64,000 nt of DNA from Spirochaetales bacterium (GTDB lineage: Bacteria > Spirochaetota > Spirochaetia > SZUA-6 > DRHE01), in NCBI GenBank assembly GCA_030604195.1, contig JAUVWI010000004.1, forward strand, positions 20,829 to 84,828. Reading direction: 5' to 3'. The notes under the pieces are model-generated. The model did not search any database and had not been told where the DNA came from. It worked only from the letters and a program-made list of their open reading frames with translations. This document shows positions 2,601 to 63,374 of this stretch, piece by piece. Numbering within the stretch: position 1 is the first letter of the stretch; the number at the start of each line of letters is the position of its first letter. Position numbers and translations under genes: made by a program.

Positions 2601-2641
2601 TGATTGCTCCTTTTTAAAGTAATTACATATTTTCTTAGTTA

Positions 2642-2669: not shown

Positions 2670-2713
2670 CAATTTTTCTTATTTTTTATATTATATGGCA
2701 TTTCTTAAGGAAA

Positions 2714-3220
2714 TTATTGCAGTATTTCTTTTGAAAAATGTACTTCTTCAATTTTAGCAGCGTCAATACGGGGGATTTGCCCATCGATAAAAATGTACAG
2801 GTGCTTCACCCGGGGGAAATTGAATAGAATGGAATTGCCTACAGCGTACAGAATTTCAGCATAAGAGGAAATTACTTCCCCACCGGTAAATAGAATATGA
2901 TTTGAAAAGTTCACATAAACAGAATCTTTGCGCCACAGCAGAGAGGTGACCCTGGTCTCTTTGGGAAGTATCCTGACATGATTGGGTAAAACGGGACCCA
3001 AAATAAGCTCAGCCAAGAGAATATGTACTGCATCTTCACCTTCTTTCAAGGGTATAAGCCTCTCTTCACCTGCCAGCCTGGCGGATGAAACCGTTGGAAA
3101 GAAAAGAACCCTTCTCTCCAGTTTATCTTTGCAGTAGAAATATTGAACTGCTGAAAGGCATATTACCAGGAGAAAAATAAGTGCAATAACAATGGCTGAA
3201 GATCTATACTTTGCGGGCAA
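2714..3220 (-). CDS. GerMN-domain protein (membrane-anchored)
   Basis: It has an N-terminal TM segment. The LLAELILGPV motif and overall layout fit GerM/GerMN-type domains, which commonly follow cell-wall amidase genes. A 3-nt gap separates it from the amidase gene. Confidence 0.55.
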   Translation of the reverse strand: MPAKYRSSAIVIALIFLLVICLSAVQYFYCKDKLERRVLFFPTVSSARLAGEERLIPLKEGEDAVHILLAELILGPVLPNHVRILPKETRVTSLLWRKDSVYVNFSNHILFTGGEVISSYAEILYAVGNSILFNFPRVKHLYIFIDGQIPRIDAAKIEEVHFSKEILQ

Positions 3221-3223
3221 TTC

Positions 3224-48315: not shown

Positions 48316-49476
48316 TCAATATATTATTTTACCTTCCCACAAATCACTTAAGAAATCTAAATATGGAACTATTTCTATCCGCCCATGAATTCTTTTTTCC
48401 CTCTCATTGCATACAACCAAAGCCTTTCGCGGTGAATATTCCTCGATAAAAGCGGTCATGGGCAGTAAATCCTTTTTCCTGACATAACTGGTGCCTTTAA
48501 CTTCGATAGCCACTTCCCCCCTACCCAGAATGAAGTCAACCTCTATGCCTGATTTCGTCCGCCAGAAATTGATATCATAATGGAGTTCCTTATAGGAATT
48601 ATAAGCTGCTATCTCCATGAATATAAAATGTTCAAATGCTTTACCAAACAATTCACCTTTCTCTTCCTCTATCTTCCTCTTTGTTATGGATCCTGCAACT
48701 CCCACATCAAATAAGTAGAATTTTGATGCTTTTGTAATAATTTGCCGATTTTGCCTTCTCTTGAAGGGTTCAACCATGGTGCCCAGCAGAGTATCGACAA
48801 GGATTTGATAGTATTCTTTTACAGTTTTTGAATCCACACCGCACTCGCGCGCTATATTGGAGTAATTCGTAAGCTCACCGTGTGAGTACCCTATAGCATC
48901 AAAGAATCTGGAAAATGCCGGAATATTGCGGGTCAATCCCTCATTAAATACTTCCTCTTTTAAATAATCCTGGCAATAAGCAATTAAAGCTTTCTGATAA
49001 TTGTCCTGCAGATAATGAATCGGTATCATTCCATGATTCAAAGCTCTCAATAAATCCGGATGATCTAATTCAGGCGTGACAAGTGGAAACATTTCATAAC
49101 GCCATGCCCGGCCTCCCAGTAAATTGGCTTTCCCCCTTTTCAGTTTGCGTGCGCTTGATCCACATAGGATAAAGCGAATTCCCTTATTCTCGATCAACCA
49201 GTGAACTTCGTCCAGAATTTGTGGAACTTTCTGTACTTCATCAAGTATTACAGGATAATTCAAAACATCATCACCTTTTGCCAACAATCTTTCCCGCAAA
49301 AGAAAAGGTTTCTTGGAGATTTCAAGAAATAAATCGGTTTTCAGAAAATCGTACACCAGGCTGTGGGGGAATTTCATTTTCATATAAGTTGACTTACCTG
49401 TTTTTCTCGGCCCCCATAAAAATGCAGACTGCCCGGGTGGAAGATCTATATTAAGGATTCTTTCAATATTAGTCAT
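48316..49476 (-). CDS. AAA-type ATPase with C-terminal DUF4143/PD-(D/E)xK-like module (copy 1)
   Basis: Walker A is LWGPRKTGKST and Walker B is VILDEVQ. The C-terminal nuclease-like motif is GIEVDFIL..GEVAIEVKG. The start is set to the ATG at 49476 (MTNIERIL), which has AGGAG upstream. Confidence 0.8.
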   Translation of the reverse strand: MTNIERILNIDLPPGQSAFLWGPRKTGKSTYMKMKFPHSLVYDFLKTDLFLEISKKPFLLRERLLAKGDDVLNYPVILDEVQKVPQILDEVHWLIENKGIRFILCGSSARKLKRGKANLLGGRAWRYEMFPLVTPELDHPDLLRALNHGMIPIHYLQDNYQKALIAYCQDYLKEEVFNEGLTRNIPAFSRFFDAIGYSHGELTNYSNIARECGVDSKTVKEYYQILVDTLLGTMVEPFKRRQNRQIITKASKFYLFDVGVAGSITKRKIEEEKGELFGKAFEHFIFMEIAAYNSYKELHYDINFWRTKSGIEVDFILGRGEVAIEVKGTSYVRKKDLLPMTAFIEEYSPRKALVVCNEREKRIHGRIEIVPYLDFLSDLWEGKIIY

Positions 49477-49501
49477 ATTAGGATAATACTCCTGTCTAGT
49501 T

Positions 49502-49533
49502 ATACTATTTCGAAGTCTACTACGAAATAGTAT
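49502..49533. repeat. perfect 11-bp inverted repeat upstream of AAA ATPase copy 1
   Basis: ATACTATTTCG (49502-49512) and CGAAATAGTAT (49523-49533) are separated by 10 nt. The repeat lies 26-57 nt upstream of the preferred ATG at 49476. Confidence 0.6.
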
Positions 49534-49664
49534 CGATAGCAAGTAATATTTGAGAATGAGTGAAAATTCCTATCTTTACCGTTTTTTATCTCTTCAAGCA
49601 TCGGGGTGCCTTACTTTTAAACTTCAATTGTAATAAAAATTATTAAGTATTAGAATTAACAAGT

Positions 49665-51064: not shown

Positions 51065-52273
51065 TTACAGATTTAACCATGAGTTAATAAAGGTATTTTT
51101 GCGTTTCATTGCTTCCGGAGTGTTGCAGATAAGATAATTAGATTCGGAAATATTTAATAGTAGGCGTAGTTTTTCAAAATTTTTTATATGAGACGGTCCA
51201 ATGGTTGCACTGAGCTTTACTTCCACTGGAAGTAAAGCCAAATTTTTTTCAATCAGCAGATCAATCTCCCAAAGGTTCCGGTGATTTATATAATAACTAT
51301 TCAAATTATAATTGAAGTGCTTTTTATTCTTATGAAACTCAGATATTACAAAATTCTCAAAAAACTGACCTGCCACATTTCCTCTGATCAGATAATCGGC
51401 ATTATTTATACCGGCAAGATGTGCTGCCAAACCTGTGTCAATAAAATAGTATTTTGGTGTTTTAGTTATTCTCTTGCTGATATTCCGTGAGTATGGCTGT
51501 AATTTAAAAATGATAAAACCGGCTTCTAGTACTGAAAACCATTTTTTTATTGTAGGAACAGAAACGCCCAGATCTGATGAAAAACTTGAATAGTTCAAAA
51601 TGCTCGAACATCTTGCCGCTGCCAAAGTAATAAATTGATAGAAGATATCCAGGTTTCCTATATCATAAAGACTTTTTAAATCTCTCTCCAAATATGTTTG
51701 GATATAAGAGCTGAACCAGATATTTTTGTCCACCTCAGGGTTACTGATAATCTCAGGATAAAAACCGTTAAGAATAGTGGATCCGATTTCATGTTCAGAC
51801 GAAACTACCTGCTTTTCAGTTAGATTAATAAACCAATCGTCCCAGGTGTTGAAAGCTGTTTCCTTGGCCTCGGAATAAGAAAAAGGCAGTAATGTCATAA
51901 CAGCAACTCTTCCGGCCAATGATTCAGAGATGTTCTTCATTACTGCAAACTGTTGAGAACCTGTTAGGAAAAACATACCAGGCCGACGGTTATTGTCGAT
52001 TATTTCTTTTATATAAGGCAAGAGTTCCGGCACATATTGAAACTCATCAATTATCAGAGGATATTTATGCTTAGCCAAAAAATCCTGGGGATCATCTTTT
52101 GCCCATAACCGGTTATCCGGCTTTTCCATGGAAACAAAGTTAGCCTTATGGGAAAACATCCTTTTCAGCAGAGTTGTCTTGCCGGACTGCCGAGGTCCGA
52201 CAACTGCAAGAGCAGGAAAGGTTTTTATGGCCCTGTTTATTGGAAGTGATAATTGTCGTTTAAAATACTTCAT
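51065..52273 (-). CDS. AAA-type ATPase with C-terminal DUF4143/PD-(D/E)xK-like module (copy 2)
   Basis: Walker A is VVGPRQSGKTTLL and Walker B is LIIDEFQ. The C-terminal motif is WEIDLLIE...LLPVEVKLS. The start is set to the ATG at 52273, because the track start at 52282 is a TTG. Confidence 0.8.
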   Translation of the reverse strand: MKYFKRQLSLPINRAIKTFPALAVVGPRQSGKTTLLKRMFSHKANFVSMEKPDNRLWAKDDPQDFLAKHKYPLIIDEFQYVPELLPYIKEIIDNNRRPGMFFLTGSQQFAVMKNISESLAGRVAVMTLLPFSYSEAKETAFNTWDDWFINLTEKQVVSSEHEIGSTILNGFYPEIISNPEVDKNIWFSSYIQTYLERDLKSLYDIGNLDIFYQFITLAAARCSSILNYSSFSSDLGVSVPTIKKWFSVLEAGFIIFKLQPYSRNISKRITKTPKYYFIDTGLAAHLAGINNADYLIRGNVAGQFFENFVISEFHKNKKHFNYNLNSYYINHRNLWEIDLLIEKNLALLPVEVKLSATIGPSHIKNFEKLRLLLNISESNYLICNTPEAMKRKNTFINSWLNL

Positions 52274-52281
52274 TTGTGACA

Positions 52282-52310
52282 ATTTTAAAGTGTTGATTTA
52301 AATTTGTCAA
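52282..52310 (-). promoter_or_regulatory. sigma70-like promoter placed for a (near-)leaderless transcript of AAA ATPase copy 2
   Basis: On the minus strand TTGACA (52310-52305) is followed by a 17-nt spacer and TAAAAT (52287-52282). Only 8 nt separate the -10 from the ATG at 52273, and there is no RBS. Confidence 0.45.
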
Positions 52311-54746: not shown

Positions 54747-54989
54747 TTACCCATGCGGTCCGATAATAATCAATTCCATAACATTACCAAAGAAACGATA
54801 GGCTAATAGATACTGAACAGCCTGGATTTTAAACTTGTGCACGTAAACCCCGCGAAGATCACCTTTCTTTTCAGATCCGATATGGGGATTGTCCATAATT
54901 CTTCGGATTTCCTGGTCAAGTCTACTTTTTTCCCGTTTCGTGAATTTCTTGATTTTCCGGGCGAATGATCGAGATTGTAAGATTTTCAT
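54747..54989 (-). CDS. RelE/ParE-superfamily toxin (ParE-like)
   Basis: 80 aa with FARKIKKF..REKSRLDQEIRRIMDNPHIG.. KGDLRGVYVHKF...LLAYRF....ELIIIGPH, which follows the RelE/ParE fold pattern. It lies 11 nt after the antitoxin gene. Confidence 0.7.
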   Translation of the reverse strand: MKILQSRSFARKIKKFTKREKSRLDQEIRRIMDNPHIGSEKKGDLRGVYVHKFKIQAVQYLLAYRFFGNVMELIIIGPHG

Positions 54990-55000
54990 CTCATGAGCAG

Positions 55001-55219
55001 CTATCCGAAATTATATTCTGAAGGCTCTTCCTGTTCCAGTTCCTTAATGCCAATTAATATTTCCCGTATCAGAGTGTAATTTAAATCCGGGTTTTCTTCA
55101 GCGATTTTACCAATTCGCGCCCAGTGTTCAATCTGACCGGTAATAGATCGATTATCAATATTACTGTAGTTCCTGGCTTCCCGTAACAATTCATCGGATA
55201 CACGAACCGCTCCAGCCAT
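55001..55219 (-). CDS. ParD-like antitoxin
   Basis: 72 aa. VRVSDELLREARNYSNIDNRSITGQIEHWARIGKIAEENPDL resembles the ParD-like antitoxin family that pairs with ParE-like toxins. Confidence 0.65.
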   Translation of the reverse strand: MAGAVRVSDELLREARNYSNIDNRSITGQIEHWARIGKIAEENPDLNYTLIREILIGIKELEQEEPSEYNFG

Positions 55220-55265
55220 TTTAATGTTCTCCTTAATATAGTTTTGTAGCTAATATAGCACAAAA

Positions 55266-55281
55266 TGCAACAATTTGCAAC
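55266..55281. repeat. direct repeat TGCAAC-N4-TGCAAC in the parD-like promoter region (possible operator)
   Basis: TGCAAC occurs at 55266-55271 and 55276-55281, a 10-bp period. On the minus strand it overlaps a TTGCAA (-35-like), 17-nt spacer, TATATT arrangement upstream of the antitoxin gene. Confidence 0.35.
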
Positions 55282-55322
55282 AGATGAAAATTTTTTTAAC
55301 TCATACGCTGCCTGAACAATCC

Positions 55323-57452
55323 TCACTTTAGCCTCTCTGCCAGCAGGGTATAGCGCTTCTGGGTTTTATCATTCTTAACCGCAATGTTCAGGGCCTTTTT
55401 GCTACCCACGAGCACCACGAGCTTTTCCCCACGGGTAACAGCCGTATAGAGCAGGTTGCGCTGTAAGAGCAGGTAATGCTGGGTCATAACGGGAATAACA
55501 ACGGCCGGATACTCGGAGCCCTGGGCCTTATGCACGGAAACTGCATAAGCTAAAGTGATCTCATCGAGTTCCGCAGACTCATAGTCCACACTGCGGCCGT
55601 CAAATAATACCCGTACCCTGCGACCCTCTTCTTCAATACGGGTAATTCGTCCCATATCCCCGTTAAACACATCCTTCTTATAGTTGTTCCTTATCTGCAT
55701 TACCTTATCGTGTACTTTAAGTATTTTAGCGCCCCTTACTGTTCCTTTCCCGCCGGGATTCAGGGCATTCTGCAGCTCCCGATTCAGGTTCTCCACCCCT
55801 ATCAGCCCCCTGTGCATGGGGGAGAGCACCTGGATATCATCCACCGGGTCCAGGTTGAACCTCCTGGGTATGCGCTCTCTTACAAGCTCAATAATAATTC
55901 CGGCAACCTTTTCCGGCTCTTCCTGCTCAATAAAATAGAAGTCGCTCTCCGAGGCGGAATATTCAGGCGTTAAACCCACATTAATCCGGTGGGCGTTCAC
56001 AATGATCCGGCTCTCCCTGGCCTGGCGGAATATCTCGTTCAATTCCACCACCGTCACCCTGCCGGAGGCTATTATGTCTTTCAAGACGTTCCCGGCTCCC
56101 ACTGAGGGAAGCTGGTTCACATCTCCTATTAATATCAGGGAGGCATTCGCAGGAATGGCTTTCAGCAGATGATGCATCAAAATTGTATCGATCATGGAGG
56201 CTTCATCCAGGATTATCAGGTCGCACCGCAGGGGATCCGACTGATTCTTCTGAAATCCCCCTGCCCGCATATTATACTCAAGCAGCCGGTGAATAGTTTT
56301 TGCCTGGTATCCTGTTGCCTCACTCATTCGCTTGGCTGCTCTGCCTGTAGGCGCGGCCAGCATAATCCTGGTTCCGATCCTGGAAACAATGGCCAGAATG
56401 GTCTTTATAATGGTGGTCTTTCCCGTTCCGGGTCCGCCGGTAATAACTAAAAGCTTATCTTTTAAGGCGCGCCTGACTGCTTCCGCCTGTTTAGCGGCCA
56501 GGGTAATATCGAGCCTCTGCTGGACCCACTGGAGAGCTCTCTCCGAGTCAACCTCTCTCATGCTCCTGCTGTCATTCTGAAGTTCAATCAGATTAGCTGC
56601 AATTCCTGTTTCTGAAACATAAAATGGGGGCAAATAGACTGACCCTTTATACAGCACCAGCTTTTCATTCCTGCTTAATTCATCCAGTGCACCGGCAATA
56701 ATCTCTCTATCAATCTGCAGAATTTTCTGGCTTCTCTGTATAAGCATGTCAGATGGGTAATAGACATGCCCTTCATCAGTACACTGGTTCAGTACATGGA
56801 GCAGTCCCGCCTCGGCCCGTTCTTCGGAATCCCTGGCAAATCCCATGTTTTCCGCAATTTTGTCCGCGGTTATAAAGCCGATTCCAAAAATATCCGTTGC
56901 CAGGCGGTAGGGATTCTCCTTCACAACTTCTACAGCGTGGTTTCCATACCGCTTGAATATTTTGGCCGCATAACCCGGGCTTACACCATAGGACTGCAGG
57001 AAAATCATAACCCCCCGTATTTCTTTTTGCTCATCCCAGGCTTCACTGATCATCTTCAGCCTTTTCCTGCCGATTCCCTCCACCTGGGTTAATTTCTCTA
57101 TTTTGTCATCAATAACCGATAGGGTTTTTTCTCCGAATTTACCTACTATCCGGCGGGCCATCTCTGCCCCGATTCCCCGGATCAGGCCGGAAGCCAGGTA
57201 TTTTTCTATACCCACAACGGCTGCCGGCACTGAAGTTTTATAGCTTGATATCTTAAACTGGCGGCCGTATTTGGGATGGCTATTCCATTCTCCCTTCATG
57301 AAGATCATTTCTCCGGGTATGGGAGATACGAGGTTCCCTACAATCGTTATAAGCTCATCATGGCCATCAACCCTGACCCGGGCTATGGTGTAACCGTTCT
57401 CTTCATTGGTGTAGGTAATGCTCTCTATGTGTCCTTCAAGTTCTTCAATCAT
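55323..57452 (-). CDS. recD2: RecD2-type SF1B DNA helicase (RecD/TraA family)
   Basis: Walker A is VITGGPGTGKTT and Walker B is LIILDEASMID. Also present are GDVNQLPSVG, AVSVHKAQGSEY, an N-terminal OB-like region, and HhH (GIGAEMARRIV, GIGRKR). The preferred start is the ATG at 57452 (MIEELEGH), which shares its A with the upstream TGA stop. Confidence 0.85.
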   Translation of the reverse strand: MIEELEGHIESITYTNEENGYTIARVRVDGHDELITIVGNLVSPIPGEMIFMKGEWNSHPKYGRQFKISSYKTSVPAAVVGIEKYLASGLIRGIGAEMARRIVGKFGEKTLSVIDDKIEKLTQVEGIGRKRLKMISEAWDEQKEIRGVMIFLQSYGVSPGYAAKIFKRYGNHAVEVVKENPYRLATDIFGIGFITADKIAENMGFARDSEERAEAGLLHVLNQCTDEGHVYYPSDMLIQRSQKILQIDREIIAGALDELSRNEKLVLYKGSVYLPPFYVSETGIAANLIELQNDSRSMREVDSERALQWVQQRLDITLAAKQAEAVRRALKDKLLVITGGPGTGKTTIIKTILAIVSRIGTRIMLAAPTGRAAKRMSEATGYQAKTIHRLLEYNMRAGGFQKNQSDPLRCDLIILDEASMIDTILMHHLLKAIPANASLILIGDVNQLPSVGAGNVLKDIIASGRVTVVELNEIFRQARESRIIVNAHRINVGLTPEYSASESDFYFIEQEEPEKVAGIIIELVRERIPRRFNLDPVDDIQVLSPMHRGLIGVENLNRELQNALNPGGKGTVRGAKILKVHDKVMQIRNNYKKDVFNGDMGRITRIEEEGRRVRVLFDGRSVDYESAELDEITLAYAVSVHKAQGSEYPAVVIPVMTQHYLLLQRNLLYTAVTRGEKLVVLVGSKKALNIAVKNDKTQKRYTLLAERLK

Positions 57453-60400
57453 CAGGGATAGAGCCACTCCGCCCTGAAAATTGTACACTCATAGGCTCCG
57501 CCTTTCCCATGTTTCAGTCCGTCGCGCGTCAGGGAGAGGCCGTGGTCCGTGGTCAGAACTAAAGGGCGCTTCTGCTCCGTACAGAGCCTGCAGAATGACG
57601 GCAGCTCCTTCTCTATGATGTTCTTCAATATTCCGGCCATATCGGCAAGCCGCAGTTCACGGCTGTGGGCTGCCCGGTCAATAATGGCCAGACGAATAAC
57701 AGCGCATTTGCCGGGGTCCAGGGGCAGCACATGATCAACCAGGGAATGTTCTTCATCACCTGAAAGGTTAAAATAGAGAATATCCCGCAGGGAAAACTCT
57801 TCCACCGGATCACCTTTAAAGCCGAAGAGTCCGGCAATGGCGCTGCTTGTAAAGGGCTCCGCACCCAGCCTGGCCCATTGCCTGGATAAGGTTCCGGGCA
57901 ATAGCTCAATTTTAGCCATCGCTTCCAGCCAGAGATCAGGCGAAGCACCATCCACAATTATCACTAAAGGCTTCTCTTCAAGGGAAATGGGCAGAACAGG
58001 AGATAGTTCGGAAAGCCACTTTTCTCCTGAACAGGAAAGCTCATCAACCATGCCGAATGCCTGCTCTTTCAGAGCCCTGGTTGTCCAGGGGTCTGATATC
58101 AGCTCACTCACGGGAATACGCACTGCCAGCCTTTCAGGGTATGGCATAGCCAGGCCGCTATGGATCAGCTTTGCTATTTCAAGAGAGTTTTTAATGCTTT
58201 CCGCCCGCTCAGGAAGTGCATGAAGGGATTTCGCTTCAATATTTTCAGGCAGGGCGGCGCCCTTTAGAATTCGTTCGGCAAGCATAATCCAGGCCGACCG
58301 CACAGCCTGGGTATGGAATCTTTCTGTGGAAATGAAGCTATAGAGCTTTTCAGTATCCAGGAACTCCAGAGGCTCGCTTAAACGAGCAGAGGGAAATTGC
58401 TCCTCGAGCATCATCTCAATTCTCTTGATCTCATCAGGTAGAGCTGCCTCCGGCCGGTCGTCAAGGGGCCGCAATGCCGGGTCTGTACCGAAAAGCTCAC
58501 TGTGAAGCAGGGGCCACCAGCCCAATAACTTTGGGCCGCCTTCGGAACGGGGCAGAGAGTCATCCTCAATGGCAATCAATATTTCTTCATCGGGCTCTTT
58601 ATCTGTCTTCCCGGCTTCAGGACCGGCAAGCCATTCCCGGAAAAGAGCTGAAACCCGTTCAGAGGGAAGCCTCCTGCCGGCAAGTTCTTTTACAAGATCG
58701 CTTAATTTCCTGTTGTGTATGGAGATGCGTCCTGCCAGTGATTGGGATATCTCATCAGCAGTATCCACATCTATAGTACGCGTCAGGGTGGAAGCCTTGA
58801 GCTTGCCTGATTTCAGGGTTTGCCCAAGTTCTTTCAGGCGCCCGGCTATTCCAGGATTTACATCCTGCAGGGCATAGGAACGGACAGCCAGGGATTCCAG
58901 AACTTTGGGATTGCGCAGTATTTCAATGTAGATTTCCAGATAATGGTTAATCTTCTCTTCCGGATTTTCAACCATGGCAATTTCCGCTCTGTCACCCGGC
59001 TGAAAACCGCAACCGCACACCGGGGAGCGCATGAGTTCTTCTGATATCTGCCTTGTGCACTGCTTTATATCAGGAGCATTCATCTCCCTTATAAACTCAT
59101 CAATACCCGGAGGTCTGTCCAGGGTTTCAATCCGGGCCAGCCGCATTATGGTATCCAGGGCTCTTCCGGCATTTTTTGCCAGAGGCGCCCGGCGCTGGGA
59201 TATATAGTACTCGTTGTGCTCTTTGGCATAGAGAGCGATATAATGATCGCGAAAATGGCTGAAAACCACGCCCAGATGCTCTCCGGAATCATTTACCACC
59301 CCTGTTTCAGGCTTTTCCAGCAGTTTTAAAACTGCCTGGCCAAGTTCTTCTATGGCGCTCTCCTTTTCGGCTGCCTTGCAAACCGCCTGGTGGCGTACAT
59401 AATGGTTGATGGCAACAAATTCTTCCGAAGCATTAGCCAGGAATCGATTCAATTTCTTTACAAACCTGATATCCTCTGCATTGAGGCCCGTGCCGCGCCA
59501 GCTCTGCAGAAATCTTTCAAGCCCCTCCCTGGCTGAGTAGGAAACTTTTATTTCCTTGACCAGGTTATCCAGAGCAGTAAGTTTCTGATCCAGGGAGCGG
59601 ATATCAAAAGCCTTGAAGGAAGAATAGTCAGCTATCCTTGAAAGATCTGAGCGTGTCTCCTGGGCCAGGTTTAATGTTGTATCACGAAACTTGATGAGTT
59701 CTTTCCAGGTCTCACGTTGCTGCCTCAAGCCGAAAGACTCCCATCCTGAAGATGATGTCAGGAAGGTGCATTCTTCGGTAAGGGTTGCCAGGTCATGCTC
59801 ATTTATCAGCTCACCCAGGGTAATCTCTTCAGCCTTTTCCAGGGAGTTAAGGGTTAAAAATTCCAGGGGAATGCTCCTCCCTCCCCTGCGTGCTGTAATC
59901 AGCCCGCCTGCGGTCAGTGAGGCAAGCAAGAATAAAGCCGTATCTCTGGGTAGACCAAAGGGACCGTTTTCAAGCTCAGCAAGCAGGTCAGGAACAGGTG
60001 TGGCGCCGGATGGATTCAGCAGTCCGAAGAAGAAGGACAGCAGGGGATGCCCCCTGGTATCGGGAGAGAAAATATAGGAACCGCGCTTAAGCTCAACCAG
60101 GCCCAGGGGCACGGCTAACCCGTCTATGGCAGCGCTTAGAGACCTGGAACGTGCTTCACTTAAGGAGATGCTGCCGGGTATAATAAAATCATCAAGCAGT
60201 TGCAGATAGCTCCGCGGGGTGGGCGTAAACCTTCGCGGCGCAACCTCCCTGAACCTGGGATACCTGTTTCCCAGTATAACCTCTCCGGCAGCCTCCAAAA
60301 GGCGGTCAAAGCGTTTAAGCTGACGAACCGCGGTGTCAACACGTATGGAGCGGTCGGTGAAATCGCCTGAATACAAGGCCTCCAAAGCGGCCTGGCAGGC

Positions 60401-62284
60401 TGCCGGTGCAAGGCGTTTTATTCGTTCCTGGGCCATTGGAATCAGCGGCGCCTCGGCAGGATTGGCGGGCTTCAGCTCCTGCAGAGTAAGTTTTGCCGCC
60501 AGAAACTCCTTGAGTATGCTCTCTTTCCCGGGAACCGGGATCTGCCACACTGCCGTATGCTCGCAGTCCGACTTCCCTGTGCCGATGGTCATGACTACTG
60601 CAAAATCGAACTTTTCCGAATCTATCCGGTGAGCTAAACGATCAGAGAAATCTTTTTCATCATCCTGGTAAAGAAAACAGATAAGAACCTTGCGAGTGCT
60701 CGAGTTCCAGCTTACCAGCCGCTGAGCTCCCCTTTCCATAAGAACCCTGCCGGGCCATGATTCCGATTCCTGAAGCCCGGCCAGGGCCGCTATTAAGAGT
60801 CTTGAATCATCATCTTGAAGTTCCCCGGCAAGCCTTTTGATCCTGGCATCAAGGGTCTTGCCCGGATCATCTTCGGTTACAATTTCATAGAGAGTCTTCA
60901 TGGGATCGCCCGATTCGGCCGGCTGCTTTCTGAGAAAGTGGCTTGAAGCTGCGACCGGATCAAGCAGTGTTTCCGATATGAAGAGGGCATTCATCTGCGG
61001 GGACTGAAAGTCCAGGCTGCAGGCCGCCAGTTCAGCCAGCTCATCTGCCGCAGGTTCTGAAGCAGTGGGATGTATCTTGTAGAGAACAAGCATTCGAACC
61101 AGCCTTTTAGCCAGTAAGATGTCCTCACTGCTTTCCAATTCCCGCTCAATGACCTCGTCAAGATGGGGAATGATATGGCGGGGATAGATATTGAATGATG
61201 AAAATTCAGCCAGACGCCCGGCGAAATGATCATATATACTGTCCGGAGCCAAAAGCTCCGGTGCAGGGCGGTCGAGAATAGAGGGGATATTCCGCCGGCT
61301 GTCTCCTGCAATACGGGAGTAAACAAAATCCACTACACCGCGGTGCTGGGAAAAAAGCTCTCCCAGTCCGTCAAGCAGTGTGATTGTTGTGGGATGAACC
61401 GGGTAAGTCATTTTGAAATCATCAAGGGAAGAGGAAAAGGTGGGAAACTGCTGCCTGTACATTTCATAGATTCGGTAGATCTCCTCATCCGCTCCCTGCT
61501 TGCGGCGTACAAGCCTCCCGGATATGAGCGAGCGGATGTGCACGGTAGATAGAGTGAGTTTTATAGGGAAGCGGTCCTTGATTTTACGAAAGATGGCCTG
61601 GGATATATCTCCGGTTCTTTCAATGCTCTCCTGCACAGCACAAATAATCCATAGCGGTTCACCGGATGTCATCTCTCCTAAAAGCTGCAGGGTACGGGCA
61701 TCTTCATTTAAAACCTGAGTTGAAGGTTTGGAGCGGAAAAACTCGGAAAGCTCATCTATCAGCAGGACCAGACCGTCAAAACCGGCCGATCTGACCGAGG
61801 ATATCACCCGGCTGAAGGTTTCATGCCTCTCCTTTGAGGAGATCAGAGCTGCCAGGTCAACTTTTTTGCCGTGCAGGGCAAGCGCCTTTTCCACGGATTC
61901 GATTATGATCTGTTCCAGGGGCACGGAAGCTCTATAGTTGATTAAAGATATATCAACCGGCAGATACTTTGCCTTGGATTCACTCAAGCGTTTCAGACCG
62001 CCGTGACCTTCGGAAAGGATATGCCTGCCCTTCTCTGCGGCAAGCCAGGCATAGAGAGCAGCCAGAAAATGGGATTTACCCGAGCCGAAATCACCCTGCA
62101 GGAAATATCCCTGTCCGCGGGCATTAAGCAGGGCAGCGGCTATGACAGTGCAGTGGGAGGCAACCTCATTGGTAAAAACAAAACTCATCGCAATCTCTGC
62201 GGATTTAAGCCGCCCCTCTTCAAGCTGTATTACAGTTCTTACCGGGGGTATCTCAACAAGATCGCCGATCTTTACCACACTCAC
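57452..62284 (-). CDS. 1610-aa fusion: BrxC/PglY-like P-loop ATPase N-terminus, long helical middle, PglZ-like (alkaline-phosphatase-fold) C-terminus
   Basis: Walker A is GDFGSGKSHFL (aa 64-74) and Walker B is LVLLIDELSEF (aa 172-182). The YPxHP motif is TYPVHPTTITLL (aa 293-304). The C-terminus carries PLVIIVDGASPDLW (D1445), EPFTSSAIAGLFG (T1479) and LVLTTDHGLS (D1580/H1581). The GTG start overlaps the stop of the TPR gene. Confidence 0.6.
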   Translation of the reverse strand: MSVVKIGDLVEIPPVRTVIQLEEGRLKSAEIAMSFVFTNEVASHCTVIAAALLNARGQGYFLQGDFGSGKSHFLAALYAWLAAEKGRHILSEGHGGLKRLSESKAKYLPVDISLINYRASVPLEQIIIESVEKALALHGKKVDLAALISSKERHETFSRVISSVRSAGFDGLVLLIDELSEFFRSKPSTQVLNEDARTLQLLGEMTSGEPLWIICAVQESIERTGDISQAIFRKIKDRFPIKLTLSTVHIRSLISGRLVRRKQGADEEIYRIYEMYRQQFPTFSSSLDDFKMTYPVHPTTITLLDGLGELFSQHRGVVDFVYSRIAGDSRRNIPSILDRPAPELLAPDSIYDHFAGRLAEFSSFNIYPRHIIPHLDEVIERELESSEDILLAKRLVRMLVLYKIHPTASEPAADELAELAACSLDFQSPQMNALFISETLLDPVAASSHFLRKQPAESGDPMKTLYEIVTEDDPGKTLDARIKRLAGELQDDDSRLLIAALAGLQESESWPGRVLMERGAQRLVSWNSSTRKVLICFLYQDDEKDFSDRLAHRIDSEKFDFAVVMTIGTGKSDCEHTAVWQIPVPGKESILKEFLAAKLTLQELKPANPAEAPLIPMAQERIKRLAPAACQAALEALYSGDFTDRSIRVDTAVRQLKRFDRLLEAAGEVILGNRYPRFREVAPRRFTPTPRSYLQLLDDFIIPGSISLSEARSRSLSAAIDGLAVPLGLVELKRGSYIFSPDTRGHPLLSFFFGLLNPSGATPVPDLLAELENGPFGLPRDTALFLLASLTAGGLITARRGGRSIPLEFLTLNSLEKAEEITLGELINEHDLATLTEECTFLTSSSGWESFGLRQQRETWKELIKFRDTTLNLAQETRSDLSRIADYSSFKAFDIRSLDQKLTALDNLVKEIKVSYSAREGLERFLQSWRGTGLNAEDIRFVKKLNRFLANASEEFVAINHYVRHQAVCKAAEKESAIEELGQAVLKLLEKPETGVVNDSGEHLGVVFSHFRDHYIALYAKEHNEYYISQRRAPLAKNAGRALDTIMRLARIETLDRPPGIDEFIREMNAPDIKQCTRQISEELMRSPVCGCGFQPGDRAEIAMVENPEEKINHYLEIYIEILRNPKVLESLAVRSYALQDVNPGIAGRLKELGQTLKSGKLKASTLTRTIDVDTADEISQSLAGRISIHNRKLSDLVKELAGRRLPSERVSALFREWLAGPEAGKTDKEPDEEILIAIEDDSLPRSEGGPKLLGWWPLLHSELFGTDPALRPLDDRPEAALPDEIKRIEMMLEEQFPSARLSEPLEFLDTEKLYSFISTERFHTQAVRSAWIMLAERILKGAALPENIEAKSLHALPERAESIKNSLEIAKLIHSGLAMPYPERLAVRIPVSELISDPWTTRALKEQAFGMVDELSCSGEKWLSELSPVLPISLEEKPLVIIVDGASPDLWLEAMAKIELLPGTLSRQWARLGAEPFTSSAIAGLFGFKGDPVEEFSLRDILYFNLSGDEEHSLVDHVLPLDPGKCAVIRLAIIDRAAHSRELRLADMAGILKNIIEKELPSFCRLCTEQKRPLVLTTDHGLSLTRDGLKHGKGGAYECTIFRAEWLYP
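57455..57973 (-). other. PglZ-like domain region of the fusion protein (aa ~1438-1610)
   Basis: The order and spacing of the DG metal motif, the T/S-S nucleophile segment and the DHG motif match the PglZ / alkaline-phosphatase superfamily. This was read directly from the translation. Confidence 0.55.
61385..62284 (-). other. BrxC/PglY-like ATPase core of the fusion protein (aa 1-300)
   Basis: The core has a P-loop (nt 62063-62095), Walker B (nt 61751-61774) and YPVHP (nt 61391-61405). Confidence 0.6.
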
Positions 62285-63330
62285 TGTATTTTCTCCAGTC
62301 TGGCTTTTAGCCGGTTAATACGCCCATAGAGTGATCTCTCTTCAGGGAATAGACCCAGGAGCCGGTTATAAAAATTAATAGCCCCTTCTATTTCTCCTAT
62401 ACGACTGCACGCGGCCTCATAGCTTGAGCGGAGGTACTTATTCTTTGGTTCCGCTCTTAAGAGCTCTTCCAGCATGGGAATGGCTTCTTTCTCACGTCCC
62501 GTTTTTGCCAGGGTAAAGGCTGTTTTTTGCTGTATACGCAGATTAGCTCCGCTTGTTTCTATCTTTGAATAGGCTTTTATTGCCTCATCCGGTCTGCCCG
62601 CCCTTCTGCACAGAGATGCATATATTTCCTTGTATACAGGGGGAAGTGAAGGAATACGGGCCATCTTTCCCATCTTGCCGAGTACGCTGTCCAGGCCGTC
62701 ACGCAGAATCTCAAGTTCCGTAAGCTCCCAGAGAGCATTATGGTTATGCGGTTGAAGCTGCAGCCACTTATTGCACTCTTCGATAGCCTCATCATAACTG
62801 CCAAGACCAGCCAGGGCTTTAGCGCGGTAACGATATTTATCCTGTTCAGCCATCTCCCAGGTAGATATATTTAAAAGGATCTCCTGCCAATTTTTGAGCT
62901 TTGAAAGACATGCCAAAACTCCTCTCTGTGAGCGCTGCGAAAGCCGTTCAAATTTTAGGGTATCTTTATAATAATTCAGAGCCTCTTCCGGCCTGTCCAG
63001 GCCTGAAAGCGCATCCGCTGCGGCAATGACCGCATAGGGGTTGGCACTATCCATGGACAGGGCCTCTTCTGCGACCTTCAGAGCCGACTCATATTCAGAA
63101 GCACGGATAAGAGCCACGGCCTGCTGGGTAAGCCAGAAGACATTCTGCCCGGATCCATCCAGCTGCTCACGTTCTGCATAACGCGCCGCTTCTGAATATT
63201 TGCCCAGGTTCATAAGCTTCCTGAACTCGCTGTAAGCTTCGGACACCTGCTTATCTCCACTTAAAAATATAAGCCTTTTGGGCGGCTTGCGGCCAACAGT
63301 AGCTGCAAAGGCAGACCGGTAACCTGCCAC
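62281..63330 (-). CDS. tetratricopeptide-repeat protein
   Basis: At least 7 TPR-like units are present (for example YSEAARYAE, YESALKVAEEALSMDSANPYA, PEEALNYYKDTL, YDEAIEECNKWLQLQPHN, PDEAIKAYSKI, EKEAIPMLEELLRAEPKN, IEGAINFYNRLLGLFPE). The start is GTG and is uncertain. Confidence 0.75.
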   Translation of the reverse strand: MAGYRSAFAATVGRKPPKRLIFLSGDKQVSEAYSEFRKLMNLGKYSEAARYAEREQLDGSGQNVFWLTQQAVALIRASEYESALKVAEEALSMDSANPYAVIAAADALSGLDRPEEALNYYKDTLKFERLSQRSQRGVLACLSKLKNWQEILLNISTWEMAEQDKYRYRAKALAGLGSYDEAIEECNKWLQLQPHNHNALWELTELEILRDGLDSVLGKMGKMARIPSLPPVYKEIYASLCRRAGRPDEAIKAYSKIETSGANLRIQQKTAFTLAKTGREKEAIPMLEELLRAEPKNKYLRSSYEAACSRIGEIEGAINFYNRLLGLFPEERSLYGRINRLKARLEKIQ

Positions 63331-63344: not shown

Positions 63345-63374
63345 ATTTTAGTACAGGATAGATGATAATGACAA
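63345..63374 (-). promoter_or_regulatory. candidate promoter of the TPR / ATPase-PglZ / helicase operon
   Basis: On the minus strand TTGTCA (63374-63369) is followed by an 18-nt spacer and TAAAAT (63350-63345), 14 nt upstream of the GTG at 63330. Confidence 0.35.

What the first reader, a model, noticed from the sequence alone, without database searches (positions are those of the whole stretch)
57452..62284. Single 1610-aa polypeptide fusing a BrxC/PglY-type ATPase to a PglZ-type phosphatase-fold domain
The ORF starts with a P-loop NTPase whose motifs match those I associate with BREX BrxC / Pgl PglY (DUF499/DUF6079-like) ATPases. These are GDFGSGKSHFL (aa 64-74, nt 62063-62095), LVLLIDELSEF (aa 172-182, nt 61739-61771) and TYPVHPTTITLL (aa 293-304). 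It ends with about 170 aa that carry, in the correct order, the three hallmarks of the PglZ/alkaline-phosphatase fold. These are PLVIIVDGASPDLW (Asp1445, nt 57950-57952), EPFTSSAIAGLFG (Thr1479, nt 57848-57850) and LVLTTDHGLS (Asp1580-His1581, nt 57542-57547). About 1100 aa of mostly helical sequence with no motif I recognise connect them; this stretch includes a C-x16-C-x-C patch, QCTRQ...VCGCG. In described BREX and Pgl systems the ATPase and PglZ are separate proteins. They act with a PglX methyltransferase, or with BrxP in type 4. No methyltransferase, BrxA/B/L, PglW or PAPS-reductase gene occurs anywhere in this 64-kb window. A covalent ATPase-PglZ fusion operating without a modification partner would be a distinct, apparently undescribed architecture.
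Basis: partly seen in the sequence, partly recalled or inferred. Interest (0 to 1): 0.9.

Follow-up and report, generated by a model that had tools for sequence, protein, structure and literature searches.

The report
TPR-partnered BrxC–PglZ fusion operon
A spirochaete chromosome encodes one giant protein that joins the two core proteins of the BREX anti-phage system (the BrxC ATPase and the PglZ nuclease), always next to a small TPR protein and often a DNA helicase but never a DNA methyltransferase. This arrangement appears undescribed, and it behaves in evolution more like a stable cellular gene than a mobile defence island.

Summary
ORF 57452..62284(-) encodes 1610 aa. The N-terminus is a BrxC/DUF6079 AAA+ ATPase (Pfam 8e-40; the best structural match is Acinetobacter BREX BrxC). 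The last ~330 aa form a helical connector plus a minimal PglZ/alkaline-phosphatase-fold domain. Pfam does not detect this domain. An AlphaFold model (pLDDT 90.6) matches PorX's PglZ domain (Foldseek 4.6e-9). All metal-site and nucleophile residues are conserved: D1445, D1450, T1479, D1536, H1540, D1580, H1581, H1592.

The protein does not stand alone. A ~320-aa TPR gene lies directly upstream with overlapping stop and start codons, in at least 59 of 83 related loci. RecD2 lies directly downstream in Spirochaetota. A sister subfamily has TPR–RecQ–fusion, and one SNF2 helicase family recurs in both subfamilies. No PglX, BrxA/B/L, PglW or BrxP gene was found in the window or as a recurrent neighbour in 163 related loci.

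The family occurs in 325 species-representative genomes, and none of the family's genes was found on a plasmid or in a phage or viral record. It keeps lineage-specific synteny with housekeeping genes and diverges at housekeeping-like rates.

It is best read as a new, methyltransferase-less BREX-related variant: an ATP-gated DNA scaffold with a tethered nuclease. Whether it serves defence or genome maintenance is unresolved. I found no published description.

The parts
63345..63374 (-). Best sigma-70-like promoter match (TTGTCA-18-TAAAAT, 10 of 12) upstream of the TPR gene; putative operon promoter
   Evidence: This is a consensus match only. It lies in the 63247-63510 intergenic region, next to a divergently oriented gene.
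62281..63246 (-). TPR-repeat protein, about 321 aa from GTG 63246 with a GGAG upstream (the longest ORF would start at 63330); conserved partner gene
   Evidence: Pfam TPR_14/TPR_2/TPR_19 at 1e-16 to 1e-20. Its TGA stop overlaps the GTG start of the fusion gene (GTGA). A homologous ~324-aa TPR gene lies directly upstream on the same strand in 59 of 83 loci. Seven further loci carry a recurrent antisense ORF at that position. In the two of these checked against gene calls (L003, L004), a TPR gene occupies the position. In the sister subfamily it is present in 60 of 80 loci.
57452..62284 (-). BrxC-PglZ fusion protein, 1610 aa
61055..62284 (-). aa 1-410: ORC/Cdc6-type AAA+ ATPase core plus lid (Walker A G64-S71, nt 62063-62095; Walker B D177/E178, nt 61739-61771)
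   Evidence: Pfam DUF6079 aa 5-385 at 8e-40. Foldseek best hits are BrxC 9zll/9zdx, then ORC/Cdc6. This is the most conserved region: 34-48% of columns are at least 90% conserved.
59735..61054 (-). aa 411-850: winged-helix-like and alpha+beta modules, matching the middle region of BrxC
   Evidence: Secondary structure of the AlphaFold model, pLDDT mostly 80-94. The layout matches the BrxC domain order described in 10.1101/2025.10.09.681413. The domain assignment is inferred from the secondary-structure pattern, not tested domain by domain.
58685..59734 (-). aa 851-1200: long helical (coiled-coil-like) arm with an apex loop
   Evidence: Long helices 853-1068 and 1109-1200 in the model. Pfam DUF6079 positions 1021-1133 match aa 1011-1121.
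59009..59059 (-). aa 1076-1092: invariant C-x13-C-x-C cluster at the apex of the helical arm (possible metal-binding or dimerisation hook)
   Evidence: C1076, C1090 and C1092 are invariant in 69 sequences. They are also conserved in the sister subfamily as C1156/C1170/C1172 of L084. Metal binding is inferred.
58445..58684 (-). aa 1201-1280: poorly conserved, low-confidence linker (flexible tether)
   Evidence: pLDDT 50-82. This is the least conserved segment, with a mean commonest-residue frequency of 0.37.
57995..58444 (-). aa 1281-1430: helical connector preceding the phosphatase-fold core, as in PorX and BREX PglZ
   Evidence: Helices 81-225 of the model at pLDDT above 95. Foldseek alignments to PorX span 380-515 columns. 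The connector is described for PglZ and PorX in 10.1101/2025.10.09.681413.
57455..57994 (-). aa 1431-1610: minimal PglZ/alkaline-phosphatase-fold catalytic core (D1445, D1450, T1479, D1536, H1540, D1580, H1581, H1592)
   Evidence: C-terminal fragments matched by the catalytic-domain profile (most likely from the sister subfamily) carry Pfam PF08665.
55323..57452 (-). RecD2 (SF1B helicase). Its likely ATG at 57452 overlaps the fusion gene's TGA stop (TGATG); it is the third operon gene in Spirochaetota
   Evidence: NCBIfam TIGR01448 helicase_RecD2 scores 936.6 bits against a cut-off of 500. The overlap was read. It lies downstream on the same strand in 19 loci, directly adjacent (under 300 nt) in 16, and all are Spirochaetota.

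Best explanation
The locus is a three-gene operon, TPR - BrxC-PglZ fusion - RecD2. It encodes a methyltransferase-independent relative of the BREX core.

Proposed mechanism:
- The N-terminal ORC/Cdc6-type AAA+ module and the winged-helix/alpha+beta modules bind DNA and self-associate in an ATP-dependent way, as shown for BREX BrxC.
- The long helical arm, with its invariant Cys3 apex, mediates dimerisation or higher-order assembly.
- A flexible linker tethers a helical connector plus a minimal PglZ domain with a two-metal site and a Thr nucleophile. This domain cuts phosphodiester bonds in DNA or oligonucleotides, the activity shown for BREX PglZ and PorX.
- The covalent link replaces the BrxB-mediated BrxC:PglZ contact of BREX.
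- The TPR protein acts as an obligate regulatory or adaptor subunit.
- The helicase (RecD2 here; RecQ or SNF2 in relatives) unwinds or translocates DNA to or from the nuclease.

The most likely role is ATP-gated elimination or processing of unwanted DNA (foreign or aberrant) without epigenetic self-marking.

Shown: the domain identities, the intact catalytic motifs, the operon structure, the conserved partners and the absence of BREX modification genes. Inferred: DNA as the substrate, the role of the TPR protein, cooperation with the helicase, and the biological target.
For: - BrxC identity of aa 1 to about 1200.
- PglZ-fold identity and a complete catalytic set.
- Overlapping stop/start codons (GTGA and TGATG), a promoter-like site upstream of the TPR gene, and no convincing terminator between the genes.
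- The TPR partner is near-universal in both subfamilies, and its divergence tracks that of the fusion (r = 0.93 over 1176 pairs).
- Three unrelated helicase families are recruited repeatedly into the same operon. RecD2 is in 19 loci, RecQ in 32 and one SNF2 family in 11 + 5.
- The C-terminal domain was found only at the C-terminal end of matched proteins. These were either full-length fusions or short fragments. Apparent split forms are frameshifted assemblies.
- Published biochemistry: BrxB-BrxC-PglZ form a core complex, with ATP-regulated DNA binding and multimerisation of BrxC (PMC13326643). [quoted passage not shown]
Against: - There is no experimental evidence for any activity.
- No self/non-self discrimination module is visible, so an RM-like logic cannot apply.
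- The family's evolution is unlike that of typical defence genes. It shares lineage-specific synteny with ThrRS/RNase D, Dus/HD and RecD2. Its divergence parallels neighbouring housekeeping genes. Its nearest relative is in the same phylum for 56 of 58 members. No domain is hypervariable. dN/dS is about 0.11. None of the family's genes was found on a plasmid or in a phage or viral record.
- RecD2 and RecQ here look like ordinary housekeeping versions.
- PorX-type PglZ domains act on small nucleotides, so DNA need not be the substrate.
Confidence: 0.45

Rival explanations
1. The cassette is a housekeeping genome-maintenance machine, not immunity. In this reading the BrxC-PglZ fusion with its TPR partner is a functional analogue of SbcCD/Mre11-Rad50: an ATPase with a long helical arm and a Cys apex, plus a metallo-phosphoesterase. 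It would process DNA ends, hairpins or stalled forks together with RecD2, RecQ or SNF2. It could be either the cellular ancestor of the BREX core or a domesticated derivative of it.
For: - Chromosomal, housekeeping flanks with lineage-specific synteny in Desulfobacteraceae, Fibrobacterota and Spirochaetota.
- Divergence comparable with housekeeping neighbours. In Desulfobacteraceae the fusion is at 66.9% identity against 78.1% for ThrRS. It is at 70.4% against 59.4% for RNase D. In Fibrobacterota it is at 86.1% against 85.8% for Dus. Correlations are r = 0.85-0.96.
- Members cluster by phylum.
- Conservation is spread over all domains, unlike the fast-evolving middle domains reported for BREX BrxC.
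- Operon partners are equivalog-grade RecD2 (936 bits against a cut-off of 500) and a complete RecQ with RQC and HRDC domains.
- No plasmid, phage or viral copies.
- The cassette's GC content (0.50-0.52) resembles that of core genes such as dnaE rather than the AT-richer accessory stretch next to it.
Against: - Only 325 of 185,579 species representatives matched the two family-specific peptide patterns used in the scan, so more divergent members may have been missed. On that count it is not a general housekeeping function.
- Both domains are otherwise known from defence systems (BREX) or signalling (PorX).
- Swapping between three helicase families and an optional SNF2 is modularity typical of conflict systems.
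- The SbcCD analogy is by architecture only, with no homology.
- I could not test whether carrier genomes lack SbcCD or RecBCD, or have a second recD2 or recQ.
Confidence: 0.35
2. The PglZ domain is a nucleotide-signal phosphodiesterase, as in PorX. The fusion would be a regulatory ATPase that degrades cyclic or linear oligonucleotides rather than DNA, and the TPR protein would link it to other proteins.
For: - PorX is the closest structure and the closest PDB sequence match.
- PorX and BREX PglZ cleave cyclic and linear oligonucleotides.
- The domain is a minimal PglZ that lacks the DNA-binding accessory domains of BREX PglZ.
Against: - It is fused to a full-length BrxC-type scaffold whose homologue binds DNA.
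- DNA helicases are embedded in the operon again and again.
- No cyclase, receiver domain or other signalling gene appeared among the recurrent neighbour clusters.
Confidence: 0.08
3. This is an ordinary BREX/Pgl system whose methyltransferase and other subunits are encoded elsewhere in the genome or just beyond the window.
For: - Only about 1.7 kb lies between the operon and the window's end.
- One related locus (L002) has a small N6/N4 methyltransferase about 1 kb downstream.
Against: - A divergently transcribed gene starts about 180-260 nt upstream of the TPR gene.
- In 83 + 80 related loci with up to 10 kb of flank, no methyltransferase or other BREX gene forms a recurrent neighbour cluster.
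- No neighbour of 1000 aa or more is PglX-like.
- Every window ORF of 600 aa or more was scanned, and none is PglX, PglW, BrxL or BrxP.
- The PglZ part lacks the N-terminal BrxB-binding region of BREX PglZ.
Confidence: 0.05
4. The long ORF is an artefact: a mis-assembly or read-through that joins two separate genes.
For: Short 180-290-aa proteins matching only the C-terminal domain exist in databases.
Against: - There are more than 500 homologues; the 120 best listed are 1417-1773 aa, most covering 90-100% of the query, and come from independent assemblies and several phyla.
- The short proteins checked are contig-end fragments or products of frameshift-ridden assemblies in which every neighbouring gene is also broken.
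- dN/dS is about 0.11.
Confidence: 0.01

Closest known systems
BREX core complex BrxC + (BrxB) + PglZ (types 1-6; Acinetobacter and Salmonella systems; PDB 9zdx, 9zll, 9zn5)
   Same: - The same two protein families occur in the same N-to-C order as the physical BrxC:BrxB:PglZ core complex.
- The AAA+ fold is ORC/Cdc6-type, with intact Walker A and B motifs.
- A wHTH/alpha+beta middle region and a long helical tail follow.
- The PglZ part has a helical connector plus an alkaline-phosphatase-fold core with a metal site and a Thr nucleophile.

   Different: - The two proteins are covalently fused.
- There is no PglX methyltransferase (or BrxP), and no BrxA, BrxB or BrxL.
- The PglZ part lacks the N-terminal BrxB-binding/iSwi2-Snf2-like domain, the HTH units and the C-terminal beta-sandwich.
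- A TPR protein is the constant partner.
- Sequence scores are far below the NCBIfam BrxC cut-off (71 against 400) and below Pfam PglZ detection.
- Its evolution is vertical and housekeeping-like rather than island-borne.

BREX-related systems: type-3 BR (DUF499 ATPase + methyltransferase + helicase + standalone minimal PglZ + iSTAND) and the BRC system (DUF6079 + PglZ + STAND + DUF4007 + HerA/FtsK), from Rakesh & Krishnan 2025/2026
   Same: - A BrxC-like ATPase is combined with a reduced PglZ used as the presumed nuclease effector.
- Association with Swi2/Snf2-type helicases occurs in some loci.

   Different: - In those systems PglZ is a separate protein and comes with a methyltransferase (BR) or HerA/FtsK, STAND and DUF4007 (BRC).
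- None of those partners was found in the window or among the recurrent neighbour clusters.
- That survey does not mention TPR proteins, and the passages retrieved and sections read describe no BrxC-PglZ fusion.

PorX (the PglZ-domain response regulator of the PorXY / type IX secretion pathway)
   Same: - It is the closest solved structure and the closest PDB sequence match to the C-terminal module.
- It has the same helical connector plus a minimal PglZ core.
- Three motifs align: LIDnfrqDqW, VDmmSH and LTTDHG.

   Different: PorX has an N-terminal receiver domain and acts in signalling. Here the N-terminal partner is a 1200-aa BrxC-type ATPase, and the operon contains DNA helicases.
SbcCD / Mre11-Rad50 (with the archaeal HerA-NurA operon arrangement)
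   Same: The resemblance is architectural only. Both have an ATPase with a long helical arm and a Cys-bearing apex, a binuclear metallo-phosphoesterase, and a helicase encoded alongside. Both are chromosomal and vertically inherited.
   Different: There is no homology. The ATPase here is AAA+ (ORC/Cdc6 clade), not ABC. The phosphoesterase has an alkaline-phosphatase fold, not a calcineurin-like fold. The apex is C-x13-C-x-C, not CxxC.

Membership tests
BrxC/PglY (Pfam PF19557 DUF6079 = BrxC-PglY_N) | N-terminal ORC/Cdc6-clade AAA+ ATPase with Walker A/B, matching the family HMM above its threshold | tested here: met
   - PF19557 at 8e-40, 136.6 bits against a cut-off of 23.
- PADLOC BrxC at 9.4e-34.
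- Walker A at least 90% conserved, and Walker B D177/E178 invariant.
- Foldseek top hits are BrxC 9zll/9zdx, then ORC/Cdc6.
BrxC/PglY (Pfam PF19557 DUF6079 = BrxC-PglY_N) | Full BrxC domain order: AAA+, wHTH, alpha+beta, wHTH(s), long coiled coil with a distal subdomain | tested here: inconclusive
   - The secondary-structure pattern of the AlphaFold model fits this order (against the description read).
- The DUF6079 C-terminal part matches aa 1011-1121 (E = 0.0016).
- The sister-subfamily protein aligns to a PADLOC BrxC model over positions 132-1223 of 1231.
- Solved BrxC chains cover only about 550 residues, so the tail could not be compared structurally.
BrxC/PglY (Pfam PF19557 DUF6079 = BrxC-PglY_N) | Equivalog-level score to NCBIfam BREX_BrxC or BREX-2 PglY | tested here: not met
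   BREX_BrxC scores 71.3 bits against a cut-off of 400. PglY scores 22.8 against 1700. The protein belongs to a separate, divergent clade.
PglZ (Pfam PF08665; alkaline-phosphatase superfamily) | Alkaline-phosphatase alpha/beta/alpha fold closest to known PglZ domains | tested here: met
   The model has pLDDT 90.6. Foldseek ranks PorX in places 1-17 (4.6e-9 to 2.4e-6). BREX PglZ 9zn5_B is at 2.8e-4, followed by MCR-1/EptC and alkaline phosphatases.
PglZ (Pfam PF08665; alkaline-phosphatase superfamily) | Conserved metal-binding Asp/His residues and a Thr nucleophile, in the canonical order | tested here: met
   D1445 is at least 90% conserved. D1450, T1479, D1536, H1540, D1580, H1581 and H1592 are invariant in 69 sequences. 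The three metal-binding motifs align with the PorX motifs; the Thr motif was not in the aligned stretches. They are retained in the sister subfamily.
PglZ (Pfam PF08665; alkaline-phosphatase superfamily) | A match to the Pfam PglZ HMM | tested here: not met
   The window protein gives no PF08665 hit, even at E up to 10 on the isolated C-terminus. C-terminal fragments matched by the catalytic-domain profile, most likely from the sister subfamily, do carry a precomputed PF08665 hit.
BREX / Pgl system (types 1-6) | BrxC and PglZ encoded together with a PglX-type methyltransferase (or the BrxP PAPS reductase in type 4) and type-specific genes (BrxA, BrxB, BrxL, PglW, BrxD, BrxH) | tested here: not met
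   - No such gene was found among the 35 window ORFs scanned, which include every ORF of 600 aa or more.
- No such recurrent neighbour appears in 83 genome loci or 80 metagenome loci.
- Genes encoded elsewhere in the genome could not be examined.
BREX / Pgl system (types 1-6) | Anti-phage activity with epigenetic self-marking | not testable with these tools
   This needs phage or plasmid challenge and methylome sequencing.
Type-3 BR / BRC BREX-related systems | DUF499 ATPase + methyltransferase + BrxHII-like helicase + standalone PglZ + iSTAND (BR-3); or DUF6079 + PglZ + STAND + DUF4007 + HerA/FtsK (BRC) | tested here: not met
   PglZ is fused, not standalone. No methyltransferase, STAND, DUF4007 or HerA/FtsK gene was found in the window or among the recurrent neighbour clusters (definitions read).
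PorX-type response regulators | N-terminal receiver (REC) domain fused to PglZ | tested here: not met
   No Response_reg hit. The N-terminal 1200 aa are BrxC-like.
Mobile defence-island gene (behavioural criterion, not a family) | Patchy, horizontally mobile, in variable islands, fast-evolving | tested here: not met
   - Lineage-specific synteny with housekeeping genes.
- Divergence tracks that of neighbouring genes.
- The nearest relative is in the same phylum for 56 of 58 members.
- None of the family's genes was found on a plasmid or in a phage or viral record.
- The distribution is sparse overall, at 325 of 185,579 species, so patchiness at large scale is met.

The most novel reading that the evidence does not exclude
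The TPR + BrxC-PglZ (+ RecD2/RecQ/SNF2) cassette may be an ancient, vertically inherited cellular DNA-processing machine. It would be a non-homologous counterpart of SbcCD/Mre11-Rad50, built from an ORC/Cdc6-type ATPase and an alkaline-phosphatase-fold nuclease. It would represent either the cellular ancestor from which the BREX core was recruited or a domesticated BREX core working in genome maintenance. Either way, it would be a natural minimal system showing what BrxC and PglZ do to DNA when no methyltransferase is present.
Probability: 0.3. Interest if true: 0.85.

Novelty: new variant of a known kind. Interest (0 to 1): 0.66.

Why it matters
How BREX stops phage DNA is still unresolved. 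Recent work places BrxB-BrxC-PglZ at its core and shows that PglZ is a nuclease.

A natural single-chain BrxC-PglZ has only a TPR partner and a helicase, and no methyltransferase. That makes it a much simpler system in which to ask three questions: how the ATPase gates the nuclease, what DNA feature is recognised, and whether epigenetic marking is dispensable.

Its stable, housekeeping-like inheritance in several phyla of uncultured anaerobes raises a further possibility: the BREX core has, or came from, a role in genome maintenance.

In practical terms, these proteins are currently annotated only as "DUF6079 family protein". Neither PADLOC nor Pfam flags the PglZ domain, so current defence-system annotation would miss the PglZ part of the system.

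Tried and rejected
- **Pfam/NCBIfam detection of PglZ in the window protein.** There is no Pfam hit. NCBIfam BREX_PglZ_3 reaches only E = 0.077. I therefore turned to structure and a custom profile.
- **A single-sequence phmmer search of the C-terminal 410 aa against 1.84 billion representatives.** It gave 92 hits, essentially all full-length family members or C-terminal fragments. It found no clear canonical PglZ and no standalone form.
- **hhalign of the L084 C-terminus against the family alignment.** Only the pre-linker helix matched. Direct reading then showed that L083 and L084 do carry a PglZ-like domain (LLDGMRxDLW, PTxT, IDxxVH, FSDHG). The apparent short DUF6079 hits were tblastn truncations, not a PglZ-less form.
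- **Apparent split PglZ proteins of 180-230 aa on long contigs.** I rejected these as real splits. L086 and L088 are frameshift-ridden assemblies in which the SNF2, RecQ, BrxC and RecD2 genes are also fragmented. L087 is ambiguous: the 1526-aa BrxC gene ends exactly where the 180-aa gene starts (position 8001), and the upstream RecQ is also called as two genes.
- **An antisense ORF cluster (C5_389) next to the fusion gene.** It is most likely an artefact of my longest-ORF rule falling on the TPR gene's opposite strand. This was confirmed against gene calls in L003 and L004.
- **My first TPR tblastn used an out-of-frame translation.** I discarded it and replaced it with the ORF clustering.
- **A crude regular-expression search for DNA-methyltransferase motifs in neighbour ORFs.** It returned nothing and is not trustworthy. 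I replaced it with Pfam scans of all neighbours of 1000 aa or more.
- **A pairwise-BLAST script timed out.** I redid the analysis as an all-against-all search.
- **The SNF2 partner was scanned against PADLOC.** It hits only the generic SNF2 cores of DpdE, ZorD and DrmD, which is uninformative about its role.
- **Plasmid, phage and viral-contig searches were negative.**
- **Literature searches found no prior description.** The terms were DUF6079, PglZ with TPR, BrxC-PglZ fusion wording, and PglZ with RecQ or RecD2.

Full report
**1. The observation**

ORF 57452..62284 on the minus strand (GTG start, 1610 aa) is real. In an alignment of 69 full-length homologues, the Walker A motif G64-S71 is at least 90% conserved. 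The Walker B residues D177/E178 and the YPxHP motif are invariant.

The N-terminus matches BrxC-type models:
- Pfam DUF6079, renamed BrxC-PglY_N in newer Pfam, at 8e-40 over aa 5-385.
- PADLOC BrxC at 9e-34.
- NCBIfam BREX_BrxC at 5e-20, though far below that model's equivalog cut-off (71 bits against 400).

A second, weak DUF6079 match aligns aa 1011-1121 to model positions 1021-1133 of 1238. The first ~1200 aa therefore correspond to a complete BrxC-like protein, and the last ~400 aa are an extension.

An AlphaFold model of aa 1-1200 has pLDDT 85.9. Its best Foldseek hits are the Acinetobacter BREX BrxC structures 9zll and 9zdx (E = 1e-9 to 1e-7, TM 0.56-0.61 relative to the target). ORC/Cdc6 proteins follow. 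A family profile also finds the BrxC chains as the best PDB sequences, at 1e-11.

**2. The PglZ claim**

Pfam PglZ gives no hit even on the isolated C-terminus at E up to 10. NCBIfam BREX_PglZ_3 reaches only E = 0.077. The claim is nevertheless correct.

An AlphaFold model of aa 1201-1610 has pLDDT 90.6 and pTM 0.83. It shows three parts:
- a disordered linker (aa 1201-1280);
- a helical connector (aa 1281-1430);
- a compact alpha/beta core (aa 1431-1610).

Foldseek against the PDB puts PorX, the PglZ-domain response regulator, in ranks 1-17 (4.6e-9 to 2.4e-6). MCR-1/EptC, BREX PglZ (9zn5_B, 2.8e-4), alkaline phosphatases and ENPPs follow.

A profile of the catalytic core alone (alignment A4) finds PorX as the best PDB sequence (E = 0.0013). 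Three motifs are in register: vvlllDgvspDvW with ffiLIDnfrqDqW, llDraaH with fVDmmSH, and LilttDHG with vvLTTDHG.

D1450, T1479, D1536, H1540, D1580, H1581 and H1592 are invariant, and D1445 is at least 90% conserved. By analogy with alkaline phosphatase (from my own knowledge, not tested here), this is a complete two-metal site plus a Thr nucleophile.

There is one small correction. The Cys patch is C1076-x13-C1090-x-C1092, not x16. All three cysteines are invariant.

**3. The gene is not alone**

A TPR-repeat gene lies immediately upstream (62281..63246 from the most likely GTG). Its TGA stop overlaps the GTG start of the fusion gene (GTGA).

RecD2 lies immediately downstream. It scores 936 bits on NCBIfam TIGR01448, whose cut-off is 500. 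Its likely ATG at 57452 overlaps the fusion gene's TGA stop (TGATG).

The best promoter-like site in the region lies just upstream of the TPR gene. No convincing terminator separates the three genes. Beyond the TPR gene, a divergently oriented gene begins. The unit is therefore a TPR - fusion - RecD2 operon.

**4. Relatives**

The whole protein has more than 500 homologues. The 120 best listed are 1417-1773 aa long at 42-92% identity. Where they are named at all, they are called "DUF6079 family protein" or "hypothetical protein".

A pattern scan of one genome per GTDB species found relatives in 325 of 185,579 species. All 80 retrieved loci came from uncultured genomes of Spirochaetota, Desulfobacterota, Fibrobacterota, the Kiritimatiellota/Lentisphaerota/Verrucomicrobiota group and Planctomycetota. 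The closest are Spirochaetales MAGs at 93% and 73% identity.

I clustered the ORFs around 83 loci.
- A ~324-aa TPR gene lies directly upstream on the same strand in 59 loci. Seven more carry a recurrent antisense ORF at that position. In L003 and L004, which I checked against gene calls, a TPR gene occupies the position. Most of the remaining loci are cut off by contig ends.
- RecD2 lies downstream on the same strand in 19 loci, directly adjacent in 16, and all are Spirochaetota.
- One ~908-aa SNF2 helicase family occurs within 7 kb in 11 loci from three phyla. It is often directly upstream of the TPR gene.
- Every other recurrent neighbour is lineage-specific housekeeping synteny. Examples are ThrRS and RNase D in Desulfobacteraceae and a Dus/HD pair in Fibrobacterota.

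Four hits that seemed to lack the C-terminal extension (28-31% identity) belong to a more divergent sister subfamily. Two of them (L083, and L084 at 1803 aa) show a more canonical-looking PglZ motif set: LLDGMRxDLW, PTxT, IDxxVH, FSDHG and HGG. The other two are cut off by contig ends or frame breaks. A TPR gene lies upstream in L084 and L085.

Database fragments matched by the catalytic-domain profile, most likely from this subfamily, carry a precomputed Pfam PF08665 (PglZ) hit.

A metagenome scan with this subfamily gave 302 loci. Of the 80 retrieved:
- 60 have the TPR gene upstream;
- 32 have a complete RecQ (DEAD, Helicase_C, RecQ_Zn_bind, RQC, HRDC) inserted between the TPR and fusion genes;
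- 5 have the same SNF2 family downstream, at 36-65% identity to the SNF2 of the first subfamily.

The C-terminal domain was found only at the C-terminal end of matched proteins. These were either full-length fusions or short fragments. The short PglZ-only proteins I checked are fragments from frameshifted assemblies.

**5. What is absent**

I found no PglX-type methyltransferase and no BrxA, BrxB, BrxL, PglW or PAPS-reductase gene in the window. I scanned 35 ORFs, including every ORF of 600 aa or more.

The only methyltransferase-domain ORF (5858..7660) is a generic SAM enzyme. It sits in a cluster with ATP-grasp, radical-SAM and cytidylyltransferase genes 50 kb away.

No methyltransferase or other BREX gene forms a recurrent neighbour cluster in 163 related loci. 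None of the neighbours of 1000 aa or more is PglX-like. PADLOC recognises only the BrxC part.

**6. Evolutionary behaviour**

The family's evolution is unlike that of a typical defence island.
- The window is ordinary spirochaete chromosome, with FlaA, UPF0164, DnaE, YchF and XseA.
- No member of the family was found on plasmids, in phage records or in viral contigs.
- Pairwise divergence of the fusion protein tracks that of linked housekeeping genes:

| Linked gene (lineage) | Median identity, fusion | Median identity, linked gene | r |
|---|---|---|---|
| ThrRS (Desulfobacteraceae) | 66.9% | 78.1% | 0.93 |
| RNase D (Desulfobacteraceae) | 70.4% | 59.4% | 0.85 |
| Dus (Fibrobacterota) | 86.1% | 85.8% | 0.96 |
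| RecD2 (Spirochaetota) | 51.5% | 55.0% | 0.89 |
| TPR partner (all lineages) | 43.3% | 44.6% | 0.93 |

- The nearest relative is in the same phylum-level group for 56 of 58 proteins.
- Conservation is spread over all domains. Only the aa 1201-1280 linker is variable. In BREX BrxC, by contrast, the middle domains are reported to evolve fast.
- dN/dS against the 93% relative is about 0.11.

**7. Interpretation**

Published work shows that BrxB, BrxC and PglZ form the BREX core complex, and that ATP regulates BrxC's DNA binding and self-association (PMC13326643). PglZ is a metal-dependent nuclease acting on oligonucleotides, plasmid DNA and phage DNA (PMC12205998).

The fusion hard-wires that BrxC-PglZ contact. 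It dispenses with the BrxB-binding N-terminus of PglZ.

The best-supported mechanism is therefore an ATP-gated, DNA-bound BrxC scaffold carrying a tethered PglZ phosphodiesterase/nuclease. A TPR subunit would act as regulator or adaptor, and a helicase partner (RecD2, RecQ or SNF2) would work alongside. It would act without epigenetic self-marking.

Its biological role is open. Homology to BREX and the swapping of helicase modules argue for an anti-foreign-DNA function. Stable vertical inheritance, housekeeping-grade helicase partners and the lack of any discrimination module argue for genome maintenance. In that case it would be an SbcCD/Mre11-Rad50-like machine built from different folds. 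A PorX-like role in nucleotide signalling is less likely, given the helicases and the BrxC-type scaffold, whose homologue binds DNA.

**8. Novelty**

The most comprehensive BREX survey (Rakesh & Krishnan; bioRxiv 2025, NAR 2026) describes BR types 1-3 and a HerA/FtsK-centred BRC system. In all of these PglZ is a separate protein. The survey does not mention TPR proteins. The passages I retrieved and the sections I read describe no BrxC-PglZ fusion.

Full-text searches for fusion wording, for PglZ with tetratricopeptide, and for PglZ with RecQ or RecD2 found nothing relevant.

I rate this a new variant of a known kind (BREX-related). There is a real chance that it represents a cellular, non-defence use of the BREX core.

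Noticed in passing
window 54747..55218 (-): A type II toxin-antitoxin pair lies right after RecD2. A ~72-aa antitoxin-like ORF (ATG 55218, with an AGGAG upstream; too short for the ORF list) is followed by a ParE-like toxin at 54747..54989 (Pfam ParE-like_toxin, 4.8e-24). The pair has its own promoter-like site at 55280..55252. The listed 81-aa ORF at 55081..55326 looks spurious.
   Followed up: partly
window 48316..49542 (-) and 51065..52282 (-): Two paralogous AAA_14 + DUF4143 ATPase genes flank a cNMP-binding/ZIP-transporter gene. They lie in a lower-GC stretch (0.40-0.43, against 0.50-0.52 for the operon), which may be an accessory or mobile segment next to the cassette.
   Followed up: no
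window 1587..10806: Next to the spirochaete flagellar sheath gene flaA lies a cluster of genes. It comprises an amidase, an ATP-grasp ligase, a 600-aa class-I SAM methyltransferase, a cytidylyltransferase and a radical-SAM/SPASM enzyme. It may be a flagellin or glycan modification cluster, or a peptide-maturation cluster. Its methyltransferase is the only methyltransferase-domain ORF found among the 35 window ORFs scanned.
   Followed up: partly
window 22953..30511 (-): There are two very large adjacent genes. One is a 1512-aa protein with BNR-like, HAMP and SpoIIE (PP2C phosphatase) domains. The other is a 1006-aa protein with only a terminal TPR hit. The start of one overlaps the stop of the other.
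   Followed up: no
L087 1..8543; L088 34..8690; metagenome loci L089-L168: A sister subfamily of BrxC-PglZ fusions (about 1700-1800 aa, 28-31% identical) has the operon order TPR - RecQ - fusion, sometimes followed by SNF2. RecQ is present in 32 of 80 loci.
   Followed up: yes
L084 5054..8864: In the Halanaerobiales locus, two paralogous ~630-aa proteins with N-terminal SEC-C (zinc-binding) motifs lie directly upstream of the TPR gene on the same strand. They may be additional lineage-specific components.
   Followed up: no
L004, L037, L039, L040, L049, L050, L070 (directly downstream of the fusion gene): In Fibrobacterota, a conserved ~281-aa protein with no Pfam or PADLOC hit follows the fusion gene on the same strand in 7 loci. 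A Dus gene and an HD-domain gene lie beyond it in 5 of them. It could be a lineage-specific third subunit or simply conserved synteny.
   Followed up: partly
L086, L087, L088 (ENA assemblies ERZ250394xx/ERZ250396xx): In these contigs the gene calls for SNF2, RecQ, BrxC and RecD2 are chopped into many pieces, which looks like frameshift errors. The pieces create spurious standalone PglZ-like proteins in protein databases.
   Followed up: yes
window 59009..59059 (aa 1076-1092 of the fusion): The C-x13-C-x-C cluster at the tip of the helical arm is invariant in both subfamilies. No fourth conserved ligand is obvious, so it could be an inter-subunit metal hook.
   Followed up: partly
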